Source: a virus. From it: a stretch of 36,511 nt of DNA. The DNA is taken from IMG/VR virus record IMGVR_UViG_3300029251_000043; one strand, given 5' to 3'. Positions 3,640 to 15,300 of this stretch are shown here, one piece after another. The position numbers and the translations under genes are program-made. The notes below the pieces were generated by a model. That model saw only the letters and a program-made list of their open reading frames with translations, was not told the DNA's origin and did no database searches. How positions within the stretch are numbered: the stretch's first letter is position 1; the number at the start of each line of letters is the position of its first letter.

Positions 3640-4566
3640 ATGGAAAGACAGGCAAGAAACACGGCGGGAATTATCACAAACGCAACCGCCAGCCGCGCAC
3701 CAGTCGCGGCGACTACGACCGCACCCGTCGCAGCGCGAACCGTCAACCAGATTCTGAATGGCATGTTCGATTCCGAGGGCTACAAAAAACGCCTGAACGA
3801 TCTGCTGGGTGATCGAGCACCGCAATTTATCTCGGCGGTCATCACGCTTTGCAATGCGGATGCAAACCTGACGGCGGCGGTTCGCCAAGCCCCGCAGACG
3901 GTCATTCAGGCGGCGCTCAAGGCCGCGAGCTATGATCTTCCGGTTGATAACGCGCTCGGTTTCGCCTACATTGTGCCGTTCAATAACAGCAAAAAGACGG
4001 ATGACGGAAGCTGGATCAAGATTCCGGAAGCGCAGTTTATCCTCGGTTACAAGGGCATGATTCAGCTCGCGCTCAGAACCGGGGCATACAAGCGGCTGAA
4101 CGTGATGGACGTGCGCGAGGGGGAGCTGATCTCCTGCGATAGATTGACCGAAGACTTTGAGTTCCGCTGGGAACAGGACGAGACGGAGCGCGAAAAGCTG
4201 CCGATCATCGGCTATGTCGGCTATTATCGCCTTGTGAATGGCACGGAGAAGACGGTATATATGAGCATTCAGCAGATCGAGGCGCACGAAGCGAAGAACC
4301 GAAAGGGAAAGAATCAGGGCAAAGGATGGCGCGACGACTGGGACGCTATGGCGCGGAAAACCGTCATGCGCCGCTTGCTCGGACGCTGGGGCGTTATGTC
4401 CATCGACTACAAGAGCGCATCGCCCGCCGCACTGAAAGCGGCGCATGATATAAGCGCAGGGCTGGTCGATGATGAATCCCCTCTGCCTGATGGCATCGTA
4501 GATGTGACAGACACTGGAACGGCGCATGACGCGCCGGAGAACGTGCCCGAAGACAAAGAACAATAA
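3640..4566 (+). CDS. recT: RecT-family single-strand annealing recombinase
   Basis: ORF-track 3577..4566, start ATG 3640 after AAGGAGG. Carries a GYKGMIQLALRTGAYK type RecT core. Confidence 0.85.
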   Translation: MERQARNTAGIITNATASRAPVAATTTAPVAARTVNQILNGMFDSEGYKKRLNDLLGDRAPQFISAVITLCNADANLTAAVRQAPQTVIQAALKAASYDLPVDNALGFAYIVPFNNSKKTDDGSWIKIPEAQFILGYKGMIQLALRTGAYKRLNVMDVREGELISCDRLTEDFEFRWEQDETEREKLPIIGYVGYYRLVNGTEKTVYMSIQQIEAHEAKNRKGKNQGKGWRDDWDAMARKTVMRRLLGRWGVMSIDYKSASPAALKAAHDISAGLVDDESPLPDGIVDVTDTGTAHDAPENVPEDKEQ

Positions 4567-4781
4567 AAACCGCAAGGGCTAACCCCTTGCGCATGGTGCG
4601 CAGCTCAGGAGAGCAGCTTCAAGGCGGCAAGCAGCGTCAAGAAGAAGGGACGGGTCGATACCGCAGCGCGCCGAACAGAAGAAGTTTGGGTAAGTCAAGC
4701 ACGAAGAAGCTGCTTGAAACGGTGAAAGCTCCAACAGAAGGGAGGATAGCGGAGCAAGGGCAAATTACGATCATACTGACG

Positions 4782-4977
4782 GCTCGGAAAGACGGGCACC
4801 GCACATTTCATTTCTGGCGCTTCGGAAAGACGAAGAACGTGTCCTTTAGCATCGACAGATCGGAAAGACGATCAACAAAATTGACAGCCGGAGAGACGGC
4901 AGAAAGACAAAACTGTTTTTCACATCTGACGGCGGGAAAGACCGCACACCATTTTTTCTGGCAGCCGGAAAGACGGC
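4782..4977 (+). repeat. array of six stem-loops with conserved GARAGA loop and covarying stems
   Basis: Hairpins at 4782-4797, 4820-4835, 4858-4873, 4887-4900, 4932-4945 and 4964-4977. Five loops are GAAAGA and one is GAGAGA. The stems are GCUCG/CGGGC, CUUCG/CGAAG, GAUCG/CGAUC, GCCG/CGGC, GCGG/CCGC and GCCG/CGGC. Confidence 0.85.
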
Positions 4978-5032
4978 AAATAAAAGACGTTTCACAGACG
5001 GCCTGCCGTCGGGCTAAAACGGCGGCACTCAT

Positions 5033-5166
5033 GGCAAGCATGGAAGGCATCGCGCGGGTGCAACACCCCCCCTATTCGTCAAGGTTTCTTCCTTTCCTTC
5101 CATTCTTATGCAAAATTGACGCGAAGCACCTTGCCCACGCGCCCGGTTCGAATCCGGGGCTTGCCA
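5033..5166 (+). ncRNA. tRNA-like module (T arm plus 7-bp acceptor-like helix); not a canonical tRNA
   Basis: CCCGG-TTCGAAT-CCGGG (5142-5158) is followed by GCTTGCC (5159-5165), which is complementary to GGCAAGC (5033-5039). A stacked 8-bp helix pairs 5040-5047 with 5096-5103. Total length is 134 nt, with no recognisable D or anticodon arm and no encoded CCA. Confidence 0.5.
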
Positions 5167-5199
5167 CAATTTTTCAAAAAAGCGAAAGGGGATAATAGA

Positions 5200-5958
5200 T
5201 TGAGGCGAGAGCAATTCACGTTTTATCGCAGCTACTACGAGGCGATGAAAGATTTGTCGGTCGAAGAATGCGCAAAGCTGTTGCTGGCAATCGCGGCGTA
5301 TGCGCTCGATGAAGAAGAGCCGGAGCTTTCCGGAAGCTGCTCGGCGTGTTTTAAGCTGATTCGACCGACGCTTGATTCCGGTCGAAACAAAGCGGCGAAT
5401 CGTATGAACGCCGAGGAACAAACAGAAATCAAACCGAAATCAAACGGCAACAAAGCGAAATCAAATCAGAACAAACTGGAACAAACCGAAATCAAATCAG
5501 AACAAACTGGAACAAACCGGAAGGAGAGAGAGAAAGAGAGTGAGAAAGAGAGTGAGAAAGAGAAAGAGAGAGAGTACGATAGTAGTAGTACCCCCGTACC
5601 CCCTCTGACCGACGACGAACTGCGGCGACTGCGGCAGGAACAGCAGGACGTGGAAACAGCAGCAAAGCGCGTCGGGCTGCCCGTCAGCGCGATGAGTGAC
5701 TACGACACGATGGACAACCTGCGGGCAGAGCATGGAGCGGACAACCTGCTCAAGGCAATCGACAGGATTCAGGGCGCGGCGGAAAAATGCCGGAGCTGGA
5801 GGTATGTCGGCGGGATTCTGCGGAAAGAAAAAAACGCCGGGTATACATGGGCAGAGAGAGCTGCTGAGAGCGGCGGAGGAACGGCAGGAGACGCAGAGGT
5901 GATAACCCGCAACCCGTTCGCGCTGCAATCGCTTAAATGCAGGGGGAGTGTCACATGA
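5200..5958 (+). CDS. replication organizer (DUF6291-like N-terminus, DnaD-like C-terminus)
   Basis: ORF-track 5116..5958. Probable TTG start at 5200 after GAAAGGGGA. N-terminal FTFYRSYYEAMKDL and C-terminal SWRYVGGILRK DnaD-like motifs, with a low-complexity KE-rich linker. Confidence 0.65.
   Translation: MRREQFTFYRSYYEAMKDLSVEECAKLLLAIAAYALDEEEPELSGSCSACFKLIRPTLDSGRNKAANRMNAEEQTEIKPKSNGNKAKSNQNKLEQTEIKSEQTGTNRKEREKESEKESEKEKEREYDSSSTPVPPLTDDELRRLRQEQQDVETAAKRVGLPVSAMSDYDTMDNLRAEHGADNLLKAIDRIQGAAEKCRSWRYVGGILRKEKNAGYTWAERAAESGGGTAGDAEVITRNPFALQSLKCRGSVT
5425..5575. repeat. iteron-like direct repeats plus polypurine tract inside the replication gene (candidate origin)
   Basis: GAAATCAAA occurs at 5425, 5436, 5457 and 5488. 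There is a perfect 31-bp tandem duplication (5457-5487 and 5488-5518), followed by a ~55-nt GA-rich purine tract (5521-5575). Confidence 0.6.
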
Positions 5959-11780: not shown

Positions 11781-11828
11781 GCGGCGTTGCTTATGCTGAT
11801 TTAGGAGGATGTGCAGGGAGGCGAAATC

Positions 11829-13151
11829 ATGGAGATCAAGCGCGTCAAGCTGTCGGAAATCCGGCCATACGAGAAGAACCCGCGCAGAAACGATAGCGCG
11901 GTTGATGCTGTCGCCGCGTCAATTAAAGAGTTCGGCTGGCAACAGCCCATCGTCGTTGACAAGGACGGAGTTATCATTGCCGGGCATACTCGGTACAAAG
12001 CCGCGAAAAAGCTGAAATGCAAGGAAGTCCCTGTTGTATACGCGGACAACCTGACAGACGAGCAGGTCAAGGCGTACAGACTGGCGGACAACAAGACGAG
12101 CGAGCTTGCGGAATGGGACGCTGATTTGCTCTCAGAGGAATTGCTTGATCTCCAAGATTTCGATATGGGGCAGTTTGGGTTTGACTTTCCGGATGAACCT
12201 GAAATCGAAGAACTTAAATACGGAAAATGTGACGGGAGCAGGTCACTGTTCGACAAGTATGTTATTCCACCTTTCAGCGTCCTTGATGGAAGGTCGGGCG
12301 TTTGGCAGGAAAGAAAAAGAAAGTGGCATGAAATCCTCAAAACGGATTCAAGAGCCGGACGTGCTGAGGGTCTTCTCGGCGAAGGCTTAAACCAAATGGC
12401 AAAGAACATTGGGAGCAATTTAAACGGAACGAGCGAATTCGACCCCGTATTATGCGAGCTAATGATTCGCTGGTTTTGCCCAAAGGGGGGGCGAATTATT
12501 GACCCGTTCGCCGGCGGAAATGTGCGCGGCCTCGTCAGTATGTACCTTGGAAATTATTATACTGGCGTTGATCTGCGACAGGAGCAGATTGACGAAAATA
12601 GCAAAGCGCTCGAAAAGCTGATCCGCACAGACCCGTCTGCTTGCCAAATGGAAAACAAACCGACGTGGCATTGTGGAGACAGCATGGATATAAAGGAGAT
12701 TGTAAATCAAAGCGGATTTGACTTTCTTCTGATGTGCCCACCATACGGAGACCTCGAAAAATATTCTGACGATCCCAAAGATATTTCGAATATGACTTAC
12801 GAAAATTTTATTTCAACATATTCGGAAATCATTAGCAGAACAGTTTCCTTGCTGAAAAATGATGCTTACTGCGCGGTTGTAATCAGCGACATAAGGGACA
12901 AAAAGGGGATATATCGAGGGTTCTATTCGGATACAATCAAAGCTTTCAACGATGCTGGATGTTCTCTTTACAATGACATTGTAAAAATTGATCCTGTTGC
13001 AACAGCGGCCTTGCGAGCCGATCTTCAATTCAAAAACGGGAGAAAGGTCGTTAGAACACACCAGAATGTTCTTGTTTTTATCAGAGGCAATAACAAAAAT
13101 ATAAATCTCGAACCTTACGATTTTGTCTTTGATGAAGAAACAGAAGAATAA
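11829..13151 (+). CDS. ParB-like nuclease domain fused to a DNA methyltransferase
   Basis: ORF-track 11811..13151, ATG 11829 after GGGAGG. ParB-N motif IRPYEKNPRRND...GHTRYKAA. Methylase motifs DPFAGG and CPPY. Confidence 0.8.
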   Translation: MEIKRVKLSEIRPYEKNPRRNDSAVDAVAASIKEFGWQQPIVVDKDGVIIAGHTRYKAAKKLKCKEVPVVYADNLTDEQVKAYRLADNKTSELAEWDADLLSEELLDLQDFDMGQFGFDFPDEPEIEELKYGKCDGSRSLFDKYVIPPFSVLDGRSGVWQERKRKWHEILKTDSRAGRAEGLLGEGLNQMAKNIGSNLNGTSEFDPVLCELMIRWFCPKGGRIIDPFAGGNVRGLVSMYLGNYYTGVDLRQEQIDENSKALEKLIRTDPSACQMENKPTWHCGDSMDIKEIVNQSGFDFLLMCPPYGDLEKYSDDPKDISNMTYENFISTYSEIISRTVSLLKNDAYCAVVISDIRDKKGIYRGFYSDTIKAFNDAGCSLYNDIVKIDPVATAALRADLQFKNGRKVVRTHQNVLVFIRGNNKNINLEPYDFVFDEETEE

Positions 13152-14003: not shown

Positions 14004-15300
14004 ATATGTGCCTGTTTTCAGCCCAAAGCACCTCTCGTATATCCGCGCCTGTCGAAAAAATATGTACAACATCGCCGAGGGAGCTGTTCGCGCTGGAAAG
14101 ACGGTTGATAATGTTTTCGCTTTCTGCACTGAGCTTGAAACTTGCCCGGACAAGATACATCTTGCGAGTGCTTCAACATCACCAACGGCAAAGCTGAATA
14201 TCGGAGACTGTAACGGAATGGGCATTGAAGCCCAGTTCCGTGGGCGCTGCACGTGGGGCAAATATCGAGGGAACGACTGCATCCGCGTCAGGACGAAGAC
14301 AGGAGAGAAGATTGTAATCTTTGCCGGAGCTGGAAAGGCGGACAGCTTTAAGCGAATCCGAGGAAACAGTTACGGCATGTGGATTGCAACGGAGGTCAAT
14401 CTTCACCATGAATCTTTCATTCAGGAGGCGTTCAACCGAACCGCTGCGGCAAAACTGAGAAAGTTCTTCTGGGACTTGAACCCAAGCGCACCCAATTCTC
14501 CGATATACGAAAAATATATCGACCTGTACCGCATAAAGCAGGAGCGCGGAGAATTGCCGGGCGGATGCAATTACGAACTGTTTCTGATGCGCGACAATGC
14601 GACAATATCCGACGAGAGGTTTGCGGAAATTGTCGCGCAGTACGACCCGCAATCCGTATGGTACAAGCGAGACATCGAGGGAAAGCGCGTATCTGCCGAA
14701 GGCATGATCTACCCCGGCTATTCCTCAGCACTTGAAACACCGTTCACGCCGCCGCGCTGGCGTGATGTTTTTATTTCCATCGACTACGGCACACAAAACG
14801 CCTTCGCTGCCCTGCTATGGGGCAAAAGCGAGGGCGTTTGGCATATTTTTCGGGAATACCGCTACTCAGGACGCGACACGCAGGTGCAAAAGACCGATGA
14901 GGACTATGTGCGCGACATGGAACGGTTCGTCAGCGAGAGCCTGCCAGAAGACCAGCAGCGCGGCGTGATGACGATCATTGACCCTTCCGCCGCATCGTTC
15001 ATCGCGGCACTCAGGCGTTCACGGCTTTCCTTCCGCGTGCGCAAAGCAGACAACGACGTGCTGGACGGCATCCGCGACGTTGCGGTTTGCATGCAGCGCG
15101 GCGACGTGCGGATTTTCGACAATCTGCCGGAACTGCGGAAAGAGTTTGACGGCTATGTTTGGGACGACAAGGCGGACGACAAGCCGATTAAGGTAAATGA
15201 CCACCTGATGGACGCGTTGCGCTACGGAGTGCGCACCATGCGGCTTGTCAAGCCGAAAGAAGAGTATAAAAGCCCATTCTTTGGGCGAGGAGGTGATTAA
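13984..15300 (+). CDS. terL: terminase large subunit
   Basis: ORF-track 13945..15300, start ATG 13984. Walker A-like GAVRAGKT and a C-terminal nuclease region. Confidence 0.85.
   Translation: MAMKTRKYVPVFSPKHLSYIRACRKNMYNIAEGAVRAGKTVDNVFAFCTELETCPDKIHLASASTSPTAKLNIGDCNGMGIEAQFRGRCTWGKYRGNDCIRVRTKTGEKIVIFAGAGKADSFKRIRGNSYGMWIATEVNLHHESFIQEAFNRTAAAKLRKFFWDLNPSAPNSPIYEKYIDLYRIKQERGELPGGCNYELFLMRDNATISDERFAEIVAQYDPQSVWYKRDIEGKRVSAEGMIYPGYSSALETPFTPPRWRDVFISIDYGTQNAFAALLWGKSEGVWHIFREYRYSGRDTQVQKTDEDYVRDMERFVSESLPEDQQRGVMTIIDPSAASFIAALRRSRLSFRVRKADNDVLDGIRDVAVCMQRGDVRIFDNLPELRKEFDGYVWDDKADDKPIKVNDHLMDALRYGVRTMRLVKPKEEYKSPFFGRGGD

What the first reader, a model, noticed from the sequence alone, without database searches (positions are those of the whole stretch)
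5033..5166. A tRNA-like T-arm/acceptor module closes the non-coding island
CCCGG-UUCGAAU-CCGGG (5142-5158) is a textbook T arm containing GGTTCGAATCC. It is followed by GCUUGCC (5159-5165) and A5166. The exact complement GGCAAGC sits at 5033-5039 and continues directly into an 8-bp helix, AUGGAAGG (5040-5047) paired with CCUUCCAU (5096-5103). The element is 134 nt long. It has no D or anticodon arm in the standard position and ends ACAA rather than CCA, so it is not a normal tRNA. A second GGCAAGCA at 4626-4633 could instead pair with the same 3' strand and close a ~540-nt RNA in a tmRNA-like topology. There are three possible roles. It could be an RNase P/Z processing handle that releases the RNA from the early polycistronic transcript, by analogy with tRNA-like 3' processing elements of other long ncRNAs. 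It could be a tRNA mimic. It could also be the remnant of a tRNA-derived attachment site.
Basis: partly seen in the sequence, partly recalled or inferred. Interest (0 to 1): 0.65.

Follow-up and report, generated by a model that had tools for sequence, protein, structure and literature searches.

The report
Phage tRNA-like RNA module, one of two
A family of human-gut phages carries a non-coding cassette bracketed by two conserved tRNA look-alikes; the flagged one is a complete cloverleaf mimic that host tRNA-processing enzymes probably cut out, and no RNA family in Rfam matches it.

Summary
The T arm plus acceptor closure is rare by chance: it occurs once in the window and in 8 of 300 shuffles. 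The module is conserved in 73 related phage contigs, nearly all from human gut.

Compensatory changes support four helices:
- acceptor stem, 5033-39/5159-65
- a 3-bp mini D hairpin, 5040-50, with an invariant GG
- a 10-position long arm, 5051-60/5132-41, in place of the anticodon arm
- T arm, 5142-58

Its 3' strand lies in a swappable 71-nt insert that three relatives lack entirely. The alternative closure at 4626 and the att-remnant idea are rejected.

In 30 of 73 relatives the acceptor is followed by an encoded N-CCA.

A second tRNA-like cloverleaf (4595-4673) opens the island. Each cloverleaf follows a stable hairpin plus CAU. An array of GAAAGA-loop hairpins lies between them.

ARAGORN and Rfam recognise neither module.

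Best reading (inferred, not shown): tRNA-like punctuation. RNase P and RNase Z or the CCA-adding enzyme excise the pieces and leave a stable, tRNA-scaffolded RNA with a variable payload. The function of that payload is unknown.

The parts
4571..4591 (+). Hairpin (8 bp, loop CUAAC) just after the recT stop codon (4564-4566). It is followed by CAU (4592-4594) and then the first cloverleaf.
   Evidence: Sequence. Conserved, with changed stems (GCAGGG/CCCUGC, GCCGGG/CCCGGC), in relatives that have other upstream genes.
4595..4673 (+). Upstream tRNA-like cloverleaf. Acceptor 4595-4601/4666-4672. A4602. D arm GCUC-AGGA-GAGC 4603-4614. Long arm 4615-4648 with loop GCAAGCAG. T-arm-like 4649-4665 (loop GUCGAUA; the stem is degenerate in the window). 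G4673. No CCA.
   Evidence: 77 loci, 47 variants. Alignment A2: 97.8% of cells paired, 3 pairs with double changes, slid controls at most 54%. RNAalifold finds the acceptor and T arm on its own. ARAGORN calls the L078 copy only at 80% of its threshold.
4674..4775 (+). Purine-rich middle segment with conserved motifs (AAGCACG, GAAACGG, GGGAGGA, GCAAAUU). Structure not resolved.
   Evidence: Alignment of 34 short-form islands.
4776..4977 (+). Array of six hairpins. Stems are 4-5 bp, differ in sequence, and stay complementary. The loop is GAAAGA at 4787-92, 4825-30, 4863-68, 4936-41 and 4968-73, and GAGAGA at 4891-96. Each hairpin is preceded by CUGRCRG.
   Evidence: Copy number is 1-7 among relatives.
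5004..5027 (+). Hairpin (7-8 bp, loop GGCUAAAA) preceding the flagged module. It is followed by the leader CUCAU (5028-5032).
   Evidence: Covaries in relatives: GCCGCCG/CGGCGGC, GCUGGCG/CGUCAGC, GCCGCUG/CAGCGGC.
5033..5039 (+). Acceptor stem, 5' strand (GGCAAGC). The predicted RNase P site lies between U5032 and G5033.
   Evidence: 7/7 pairs with 5159-5165. 100% of cells paired in 37 distinct rows, with two pairs showing double changes. The -1 nucleotide is U in 68 of 73 loci.
5040..5050 (+). Mini D hairpin: AUG-GAAGG-CAU, a 3-bp stem and a 5-nt loop with invariant A-G-G.
   Evidence: G-C in 20 rows, A-U in 16, G-U in 1; 99% paired. Predicted independently by RNAalifold.
5051..5060 (+). Long arm ('helix B'), 5' strand (CGCGCGGGUG), in the position of the anticodon stem.
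   Evidence: Pairs with 5132-5141. Five pairs show double changes and 91% of cells are paired. Relatives: CAGC-N-GGGCG/UUGCCC-A-GYUG and CGGCGCGGG/CCCGCGCCG.
5061..5131 (+). Payload: a 71-nt pyrimidine-rich insert at the tip of the long arm.
   Evidence: Four unrelated payload classes of about 60-94 nt (61-94 nt between the helix strands; class totals 81-114 nt), plus a 10-nt loop (CAAUCCUCCC) in L078, L084 and L099. One-nucleotide indels rule out a reading frame.
5132..5141 (+). Long arm, 3' strand (UGCCCACGCG). It abuts the T stem with no linker.
5142..5158 (+). T arm: CCCGG-UUCGAAU-CCGGG.
   Evidence: 100% paired. Relatives have CCCUG/CAGGG and CUCGG/CCGAG. The loop is always UUCRANN.
5159..5169 (+). 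Acceptor 3' strand GCUUGCC (5159-65), discriminator A5166, then CAA where relatives have CCA.
   Evidence: Tails across 73 loci: A-CAA 31, G-CCA 23, C-CAU 12, U-CCA 5, A-CCA 2.

Best explanation
Bases 5033-5166 encode, on the + strand, the second of two tRNA-like cloverleaf RNAs. Together they bracket a ~600-nt non-coding cassette (4571-5169) in the early recombination/replication operon of a human-gut Clostridia siphophage.

The fold is a four-way junction with no linker nucleotides:
- a 7-bp acceptor stem
- a 3-bp mini D hairpin whose loop keeps an invariant GG
- a 10-position long arm where the anticodon arm would be, carrying an exchangeable pyrimidine-rich payload
- a canonical T arm
- a discriminator followed by CCA, or a one-base variant of it

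Proposed mechanism. The host tRNA-maturation machinery treats the module as a pre-tRNA.
1. RNase P cuts between U5032 and G5033. The same cut gives the upstream RNA a 3' end a few bases after the protective hairpin 5004-5027.
2. The 3' side is trimmed after A5166. RNase Z would do this in CCA-less versions such as the window. Exonucleases would do it in CCA-encoding versions.
3. The CCA-adding enzyme completes the end.

The upstream cloverleaf (4595-4673), also preceded by a hairpin plus CAU, would do the same job at the recT side. The outcome would be tRNA-style punctuation that separates the recT mRNA, a hairpin-array RNA, a stable ~137-nt tRNA-scaffolded RNA that displays the payload, and the replication-gene mRNA.

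Shown here: the fold, its conservation and covariation, the strand, the encoded CCA in relatives, and the cassette organisation. Inferred: every cleavage, the stability, and any activity of the payload.
For: - Features are at the stated coordinates.
- The composite motif is rare by chance: once in the window, 8 of 300 shuffles.
- 73 related loci carry it, with 53 distinct sequences.
- The cloverleaf was counted on an alignment anchored by position, not by pairing. 96.5% of cells are paired and 10 pairs have double changes. 0 of 500 shuffles reach this on four of the five measures; the count of further pair types was matched by 183 of 500. Slid controls give at most 47% paired and at most 4 such pairs.
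- Unconstrained RNAalifold on whole-island alignments returns the same four helices.
- The minimal 73-nt version keeps all four helices and drops the payload.
- U54, U55, C56 and A58 of the T loop and the A-G-G of the D-like loop are invariant.
- The acceptor is 7 bp and the -1 nucleotide is U in 68 of 73 loci. N-CCA is encoded in 30 of 73.
- G-U pairs make the fold specific to the + strand.
- A second cloverleaf has the same hairpin-CAU-acceptor layout.
- The cassette sits between same-strand genes, with no + strand promoter or terminator match above background.
- Precedents: plant mitochondrial t-elements are cut by RNase P and RNase Z to make mRNA ends (PMC1920247). MALAT1 and mascRNA work the same way (PMC8457004). 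A 7-bp acceptor stem is described as a major RNase P determinant (PMC4201824). Engineered tRNA scaffolds carry inserts in place of the anticodon stem-loop and are processed and stabilised in bacteria (PMC3753655).
Against: - There are no expression or end-mapping data.
- ARAGORN at its default threshold and the Rfam tRNA model do not recognise the module.
- Most double changes trace to a few clades, so the number of independent events is small.
- A mere processing handle would not need the conserved D-like loop, the long arm, or the near-invariant UUGACGCGAAGCACCU segment. Something beyond processing is therefore unexplained.
- No target for the payload was found.
- The window's upstream cloverleaf has a weakened T stem.
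Confidence: 0.5

Rival explanations
1. A stand-alone tRNA mimic is the point, and processing is incidental. The CCA-ended cloverleaf would act as a decoy or sponge for a host factor that binds the tRNA elbow or acceptor end. Candidates include a tRNA-targeting defence toxin, a processing or modification enzyme, or a T-box-like sensor.
For: Conservation goes beyond what RNase P needs: the invariant GG loop, the long arm, and the near-invariant payload 3' segment. N-CCA is encoded in 30 of 73 loci. The cassette moves between gene contexts like an accessory module.
Against: The discriminator varies freely (A, G, U, C), which argues against one specific synthetase or sensor. No partner protein is encoded next to the cassette in any consistent way. 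Nothing here identifies a target.
Confidence: 0.25
2. A cis-regulatory element. The pyrimidine-rich payload pairs with the purine-rich Shine-Dalgarno leader of the next gene (start at 5200). The tRNA-like frame, or its cleavage, would then set translation of the replisome-organiser gene.
For: The module always ends 30-45 nt before the next start codon. Segments 5096-5118 and 5167-5189 are 74% complementary. Duplex energies with the leader are -15 to -24 kcal/mol, and for one leader type they beat 94-99% of shuffles.
Against: Across 54 payload/leader combinations the median rank against shuffled payloads is 0.495. Payload class and leader type assort independently. The minimal variants have almost no payload yet keep the same leader.
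Confidence: 0.1
3. A DNA-level element. The island would be the replication origin or a single-strand initiation site, with its hairpins forming in DNA and bound by the replication proteins encoded just downstream.
For: It sits directly upstream of the replisome-organiser and helicase-loader genes. It contains repeated CUGRCRG-hairpin units.
Against: A canonical UUCRANN T loop, a 7-bp acceptor and an encoded N-CCA have no rationale in DNA. The downstream organiser gene comes in two types while the repeats stay the same. Repeat spacing (38, 38, 28, 45, 32 nt) is not helically phased.
Confidence: 0.07
4. An unusual but working tRNA or a tmRNA-like molecule that is charged and enters the ribosome.
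For: Acceptor stem, T arm and CCA are present. The topology resembles the tRNA-like domain of tmRNA, with a long helix in place of the anticodon arm.
Against: There is no 5-bp/7-nt anticodon arm in any variant; the minimal form has a 10-position stem and a 10-nt loop. Pair 3:70 is an invariant C:G, not G:U. The discriminator varies. One-nucleotide indels break any frame in the payload. ARAGORN tRNA, tmRNA and intron modes and Rfam all find nothing.
Confidence: 0.04
5. A remnant of a tRNA-derived attachment site or a decaying phage tRNA gene.
For: tRNA 3' halves are common at att sites. That is all that speaks for this reading.
Against: The 22-mer and a looser pattern have no exact match in 185,579 species-representative genomes. 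The 5' partners are conserved and covary. The site lies mid-operon, and the ORFs scanned gave no integrase hit. A second module and the flanking hairpins are under the same constraint.
Confidence: 0.03

Closest known systems
t-elements of plant mitochondria (tRNA-like processing signals; PMC1920247)
   Same: Non-canonical cloverleaves with a conserved GGTTCRANYCC T arm, embedded in longer transcripts. Their 5' and 3' borders become mRNA ends through RNase P and RNase Z, and the excised element can carry non-encoded C/CCA.
   Different: t-elements are organellar and degenerate, and carry no payload. This module is in a phage, comes as a pair, has upstream protective hairpins, and has an elaborated long arm. 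Cleavage is not shown here.
MALAT1/MEN-beta 3' tRNA-like elements (mascRNA, menRNA; PMC8457004, PMC11693755)
   Same: A tRNA-like module at the 3' end of a long non-coding RNA. RNase P cutting at its 5' side creates the upstream RNA's 3' end next to a protective structure, and the small RNA is CCA-tailed.
   Different: Those are eukaryotic, the protective structure is a triple helix rather than a hairpin, and mascRNA is 58 nt with a short anticodon-like stem. There is no sequence relation.
tRNA-like domain of tmRNA
   Same: Acceptor stem plus T arm, a reduced D region containing GG, and a long helix leaving from the anticodon position toward a large insert.
   Different: This module has no G3:U70, no tag reading frame, no pseudoknots found, and a variable discriminator. 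ARAGORN and Rfam tmRNA models do not match.
Engineered tRNA scaffold for recombinant RNA (PMC3753655)
   Same: Acceptor, T and D arms are kept and the anticodon stem-loop is replaced by an arbitrary structured insert. In the engineered system the chimera is processed by cellular enzymes and protected from nucleases.
   Different: That is a laboratory design. Here the same layout appears natural, with at least five payload versions. Stability and processing are not tested.
Phage RNase P substrates that are not tRNAs: C4 antisense RNA of P1/P7, phi80 M3 RNA (listed in PMC11143913); T4 stable RNA species 1 and 2 (from my own memory, not checked here)
   Same: Small phage-encoded RNAs matured by the host tRNA 5'-processing enzyme.
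   Different: There is no Rfam C4 match. The hosts, architecture and genomic setting all differ.
Bacterial Y RNAs (YrlA; PMC4201824)
   Same: A non-coding RNA with a tRNA-mimicking domain, also found in phages. The M. smegmatis YrlA, which has a 7-bp acceptor stem, is cut by RNase P and CCA-tailed.
   Different: In YrlA the RNA ends lie at the anticodon side and a Ro60-binding helix is present. Here the ends are at the acceptor stem, no Ro60 (TROVE) family turned up among the ORFs scanned, and Rfam gives no match.

Membership tests
tRNA (Rfam RF00005 / ARAGORN) | 7-bp acceptor stem closed by the 5' and 3' ends, followed by a discriminator | tested here: met
   5033-39/5159-65 plus A5166. 100% of cells paired across 37 distinct rows.
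tRNA (Rfam RF00005 / ARAGORN) | T arm with a 5-bp stem and a UUCRANN loop | tested here: met
   5142-58. The loop is always UUCRANN in 73 loci.
tRNA (Rfam RF00005 / ARAGORN) | Anticodon arm with a 5-bp stem and a 7-nt loop | tested here: not met
   A 10-position helix carries a 10- to 94-nt loop or payload.
tRNA (Rfam RF00005 / ARAGORN) | Standard D arm and linker nucleotides 8, 9 and 26, plus a variable loop | tested here: not met
   The stem is 3 bp and the loop 5 nt. There are zero linker nucleotides at all four junction corners.
tRNA (Rfam RF00005 / ARAGORN) | Recognised by the family's own detectors | tested here: not met
   ARAGORN finds 0 genes in the window and in 9 relatives. Rfam gives no tRNA hit at E<=10. 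The only call is a weak one at 80% of ARAGORN's threshold, for the minimal L078 form.
tmRNA | G3:U70 alanine identity pair | tested here: not met
   Pair 3:70 is C:G in all 37 rows.
tmRNA | Conserved tag reading frame with a resume codon and a stop | tested here: not met
   The payload classes are unrelated to each other, and 1-nt indels occur within class A.
tmRNA | Detected by ARAGORN tmRNA mode or Rfam tmRNA models | tested here: not met
tRNA-like processing element (t-element / mascRNA type) | A non-canonical cloverleaf with a canonical T arm, embedded in a longer transcript | tested here: met
tRNA-like processing element (t-element / mascRNA type) | RNase P and RNase Z cleavage at its borders in vivo or in vitro | not testable with these tools
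   Needs end mapping or enzyme assays.
tRNA-gene fragment at an attachment site | Identity to the 3' part of a host tRNA gene | tested here: not met
   No exact hit for the 22-mer, or for a looser pattern, in 185,579 species-representative genomes. The true host may not be among them.
tRNA-gene fragment at an attachment site | Located next to an integrase or at the prophage end | tested here: not met
   It lies between recT and the replication genes. The ORFs scanned gave no integrase family.
YrlA / bacterial Y RNA | Ro60-binding helix formed by the RNA ends, and a Ro60 gene nearby | tested here: not met
   The RNA ends form the acceptor stem. The ORFs scanned gave no TROVE family. Rfam gives no hit.
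C4 antisense RNA (Rfam) | Match to the family model | tested here: not met
   No hit at gathering score or at E<=10.

The most novel reading that the evidence does not exclude
A previously undescribed class of phage RNA cassette. Two tRNA mimics would recruit host RNase P, RNase Z and the CCA-adding enzyme to cut a non-coding module out of an early polycistronic transcript. One product would be a hairpin-array RNA whose repeat number varies between phages, possibly a sponge for an RNA-binding factor. The other would be a natural tRNA-scaffolded effector RNA whose long arm displays exchangeable pyrimidine-rich payloads.
Probability: 0.35. Interest if true: 0.8.

Novelty: new variant of a known kind. 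Interest (0 to 1): 0.62.

Why it matters
tRNA mimicry as a way to borrow host processing enzymes is known from plant mitochondria, mammalian long non-coding RNAs, a herpesvirus and a few coliphage RNAs. It has not, to my knowledge, been described as paired punctuation around a non-coding cassette in gut phages, and no Rfam family matches.

If the cleavages are real, three things follow:
- It would show how a phage of Gram-positive anaerobes makes defined, stable small RNAs without promoters or terminators.
- It would provide a natural counterpart of the engineered tRNA scaffold.
- It would point to two uncharacterised RNAs, the hairpin array and the payload-bearing cloverleaf, whose variability between close relatives suggests an arms-race function.

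It also matters for annotation. Standard tRNA finders miss these modules, and a 202-codon open frame overlaps them.

Tried and rejected
1. Known families. Rfam at gathering score on the whole window, and at E<=10 on 4400-5300 and on the L078 island, gave only chance snoRNA/miRNA-type hits.
2. ARAGORN at default on the window and 9 relatives, plus tmRNA and intron modes, found nothing. Lowering the threshold to 60% gives many spurious calls.
3. Annotated phage collection. There was no DNA match for the island or for 25 kb of the window.
5. The alternative inner pairing GGUGC(5057-61)/GCACC(5126-30) fits types A and B. U5059 changes to C or A in other types without compensation, whereas GGG-UG/UG-CCC does covary. 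I kept the latter.
6. The alternative fold of the minimal and type-D forms (UAGC/GCUG) is not possible in types A-C.
7. Closure by 4626-4633 is rejected.
8. A tmRNA-like tag frame in the payload (GUC...UGA or UAA) is broken by indels.
9. Coding potential of the 202-codon frame 4587-5195. The translation is not protein-like and the frame is not conserved.
10. Antisense target of the payload elsewhere in the window. The best duplex is -34.3 kcal/mol, against -33 to -40 for shuffled payloads. A first attempt timed out.
11. Payload pairing with the downstream leader is not better than shuffles overall.
12. Payload pairing with the SD-like GGGAGG of the middle segment was checked by eye only, and no consistent covariation was seen.
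13. A structural scan of 1.08 Mb of fetched loci for further tRNA-like modules found only these two families, plus genuine tRNA clusters in unrelated contigs.
14. Literature searches for a described phage element of this kind found none.
Full report
**1. Observation**

The T-loop consensus GGTTCRANYCC occurs twice in the window against 0.23 expected. I also counted a composite motif: a 5-bp stem, a TTCRANN loop, an adjoining 7-nt strand, and a perfectly complementary partner 30-200 nt upstream. It occurs once in the window, here, and in only 8 of 300 dinucleotide-preserving shuffles.

ARAGORN finds no tRNA or tmRNA. Rfam finds nothing at gathering score and nothing relevant at E<=10.

**2. Context**

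The window is a siphovirus-type phage genome. It carries an SPP1-like portal, a terminase, a capsid protein, tail genes, an SH3 endolysin and HTH regulators. The closest cultured relative by portal protein is Flavonifractor phage Chenonceau, at 40% amino-acid identity.

The flagged segment closes a ~630-nt gap. On one side are the YqaJ exonuclease and RecT genes; recT stops at 4566. On the other are a DUF6291 replisome-organiser-like gene starting at 5200 and a G39P-type helicase loader. All are on the + strand. The gap has no + strand promoter or terminator match above background.

A 202-codon stop-free frame spans the gap. It is not protein-like, and in relatives the longest stop-free stretch shrinks to as little as 38% of the island.

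**3. Relatives**

Exact-pattern scans recovered the same island in IMG/VR viral contigs and in metagenome contigs that are almost all human-gut assemblies. In total, 73 loci carry the 3' module, with 53 distinct sequences. 77 loci carry a 5' module.

Neither the 22-mer of T arm plus acceptor nor a looser 3' pattern occurs in 185,579 species-representative bacterial and archaeal genomes.

The island is a cassette with fixed borders. The gene upstream can be recT, an SSB-like gene ending in DDDELPF or PPF, or a Cys/His-rich protein. These upstream-gene labels come from reading the sequence ends only; none was searched against a protein family. The gene downstream comes in two versions that read like the DUF6291 type, of which only the window's own was scanned.

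**4. Structure of the flagged module**

Comparison across the relatives gives a four-way junction with no linker nucleotides:
- acceptor stem, 5033-39/5159-65
- a mini D hairpin, AUG-GAAGG-CAU, 5040-50
- a long arm, 5051-60/5132-41 (CGCG-C-GGGUG with UGCCC-A-CGCG)
- T arm, 5142-58

I built the test alignment by position relative to the D-like segment and the T loop, not by pairing, and replaced the variable insert with AAAA. On it:
- 96.5% of cells are paired.
- 10 of 24 pairs show changes on both sides.
- 0 of 500 shuffles reach the observed values on four of the five measures. The fifth, the count of further pair types, was matched by 183 of 500.
- Slid controls give at most 47% paired and at most 4 such pairs.

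Examples of compensatory change:
- acceptor GGCAAGC/GCUUGCC to GGCAGAC/GUCUGCC
- D stem G-C to A-U
- long arm CGCG/CGCG to CAGC/GCUG or CAGC/GUUG
- T stem CCCGG/CCGGG to CCCUG/CAGGG and CUCGG/CCGAG

RNAalifold, run unconstrained on a MAFFT alignment of 34 whole islands, returns the same four helices.

U54, U55, C56 and A58 of the T loop and the A-G-G of the D-like loop are invariant. This fits a tRNA-type elbow, but that is an inference.

A caveat applies to the covariation. Most double changes belong to a few clades, so the number of independent events is small.

**5.

Bases 5061-5131 are a payload at the tip of the long arm. It comes in four unrelated, pyrimidine-rich classes of about 60-94 nt. 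In L078, L084 and L099 it is reduced to a 10-nt loop, CAAUCCUCCC. That leaves a 73-nt molecule which keeps all four helices.

The evidence against the 8-bp helix is as follows:
- Within the 32 distinct variants of the window's payload class, pair 5041-5102 is U.C in 21.
- No pair shows a double change, and A5044U gives a U.U mismatch.
- The D-like segment pairs with its own payload no better than with shuffled payload. The fraction of shuffles doing as well is 0.10 in the window, 0.43-0.52 in other class-A variants, and 0.63-0.99 in the other classes.

So the 8-bp helix is a purine-tract/pyrimidine-tract coincidence of this sequence, not a family feature.

One point cuts the other way.

The proposed closure through GGCAAGCA 4626-33 fails. 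That octamer is the loop of another arm and is absent from L001-type relatives.

**6. The 3' end**

The window has A-CAA. Across 73 loci the tails are A-CAA 31, G-CCA 23, C-CAU 12, U-CCA 5 and A-CCA 2. So 30 of 73 encode a full N-CCA, and all keep N73-C74.

A mix of CCA-encoding and CCA-less genes is what Firmicute tRNA genes themselves show, with RNase Z serving the CCA-less ones. That statement is established knowledge and was not tested here.

The free variation of the discriminator argues against charging by one synthetase. Pair 3:70 is an invariant C:G, so alanine identity of the tmRNA type is excluded. One-nucleotide indels in the payload exclude a tag reading frame.

**7. What else is in the island**

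- **A second cloverleaf** at 4595-4673. It has an acceptor GGUGCGC/GCGCGCC, A4602, a textbook D arm GCUC-AGGA-GAGC, a long arm, a T-arm-like hairpin with loop NUCGAUA, a G/A discriminator, and no CCA. On its alignment 97.8% of cells are paired, with double changes in the acceptor (GGCGGUC/GACCGCC) and the T stem (GGUGG/CCACC). On two of the five measures, including the number of pairs with double changes, the shuffles matched the observed value (447 and 465 of 500), so support here is weaker than for the 3' module. The D stem is invariant because it was part of the search pattern, so it carries no information. The window's own T stem is weakened.
- **A stable hairpin plus (N)CAU** precedes each cloverleaf, at 4571-91 and 5004-27. 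Both hairpins covary.
- **An array of six hairpins** lies between the cloverleaves, at 4776-4977. The stems differ but stay complementary. The loop is GAAAGA, and copy number ranges from 1 to 7 among relatives.

With ARAGORN's threshold lowered to 80%, both modules of L078 are called as weak tRNAs. At default neither is.

**8. Mechanism (inferred)**

The layout is: hairpin, CAU, 7-bp acceptor, T arm, discriminator and (C)CA, occurring twice, inside a co-directional operon. That is the layout of tRNA-style punctuation.

RNase P would cut at U4594/G4595 and at U5032/G5033. Each cut would leave the upstream RNA ending just after a protective hairpin. RNase Z or exonucleases, together with the CCA-adding enzyme, would finish the 3' ends.

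Precedents:
- Plant mitochondrial t-elements (PMC1920247).
- MALAT1 and mascRNA (PMC8457004, PMC11693755).
- The list of non-tRNA RNase P substrates, which includes phage C4 and M3 RNAs (PMC11143913).
- A 7-bp acceptor stem described as a major RNase P determinant (PMC4201824).

Conservation extends well beyond the minihelix that RNase P needs. I therefore think the excised ~137-nt cloverleaf is itself functional. It would be a natural version of the engineered tRNA scaffold, in which an insert replaces the anticodon stem-loop and the chimera is processed and protected (PMC3753655).

What the payload does is unknown. I found no specific target in the phage genome and no better-than-random pairing with the downstream ribosome-binding region overall.

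**9. Rivals**

- An att remnant or decaying tRNA gene is essentially excluded.
- A decoding tRNA or tmRNA-like molecule is essentially excluded.
- A DNA-level origin is unlikely, given the T loop, the CCA and the strand-specific G-U pairs.
- A stand-alone decoy function and a cis-regulatory role for the payload both remain open.

**10. Verdict**

The detailed fold and two of the side proposals are wrong.

The element is a new, Rfam-unmatched variant of a known kind, the tRNA-like structure. It is part of a larger conserved RNA cassette in human-gut phages. The structure is well supported. Processing and function are inferences that await end mapping.

Noticed in passing
window 4595-4673 (+): A second tRNA-like cloverleaf opens the island. 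It covaries in relatives, but its T stem is weakened in the window itself.
   Followed up: yes
window 4776-4977 (+): An array of six hairpins with a conserved GAAAGA loop (one GAGAGA). The 4-5 bp stems differ but stay complementary, and each is preceded by CUGRCRG. Copy number is 1-7 in close relatives. It might be a protein sponge, or a boxB-like or pseudo-antitoxin-like array. Nothing was tested beyond counting.
   Followed up: partly
window 4571-4591 and 5004-5027 (+): A stable hairpin followed by (N)CAU sits immediately 5' of each cloverleaf. Both hairpins covary in relatives. If RNase P cuts as predicted, they would become 3'-terminal protective hairpins.
   Followed up: partly
window 4587-5195 (+): A 202-codon stop-free frame spans the whole island because the 5' part is T-poor. 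It is not protein-like and is broken in most relatives, but a gene caller could easily annotate it.
   Followed up: yes
window 5061-5131; L010, L017, L040, L078: The payload on the long arm exists in four unrelated pyrimidine-rich classes plus a 10-nt loop (CAAUCCUCCC). All long classes end in the near-invariant UUGACGCGAAGCACCU. The reason for that conservation is unexplained.
   Followed up: partly
window 4737-4749; L001 6700-6715: There is a strong Shine-Dalgarno-like purine tract in the middle segment, GAAGGGAGGAUAG (GAAAGGAGGAC in relatives), with no start codon after it. L040-type relatives have a hairpin with loop GAGAGAGAGG at the same place.
   Followed up: no
L003/L004, L040, L010/L071 versus the window: The island behaves as a mobile cassette. 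Its borders are identical, but the upstream gene reads as recT, an SSB-like gene, or a Cys/His-rich protein. These upstream labels come from sequence ends only and were not family-searched. The downstream gene is one of two versions that read like the DUF6291 type (only the window's was scanned).
   Followed up: partly
window 4571-4591 (- strand): On the minus strand the same hairpin is followed by GTTTTTATTG and scores as a terminator-like site. The T run is not conserved in relatives with other upstream genes.
   Followed up: partly
window 14472-14482 (-): A second GGTTCAAGTCC match lies inside the terminase gene on the opposite strand. It has no acceptor-type closure in the structural scan and is probably chance.
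   Followed up: partly
window 11811-13151 (+): An ORF combines a ParB N-terminal domain with a DNA methylase domain, just upstream of the terminase. It is unrelated to the finding.
   Followed up: no
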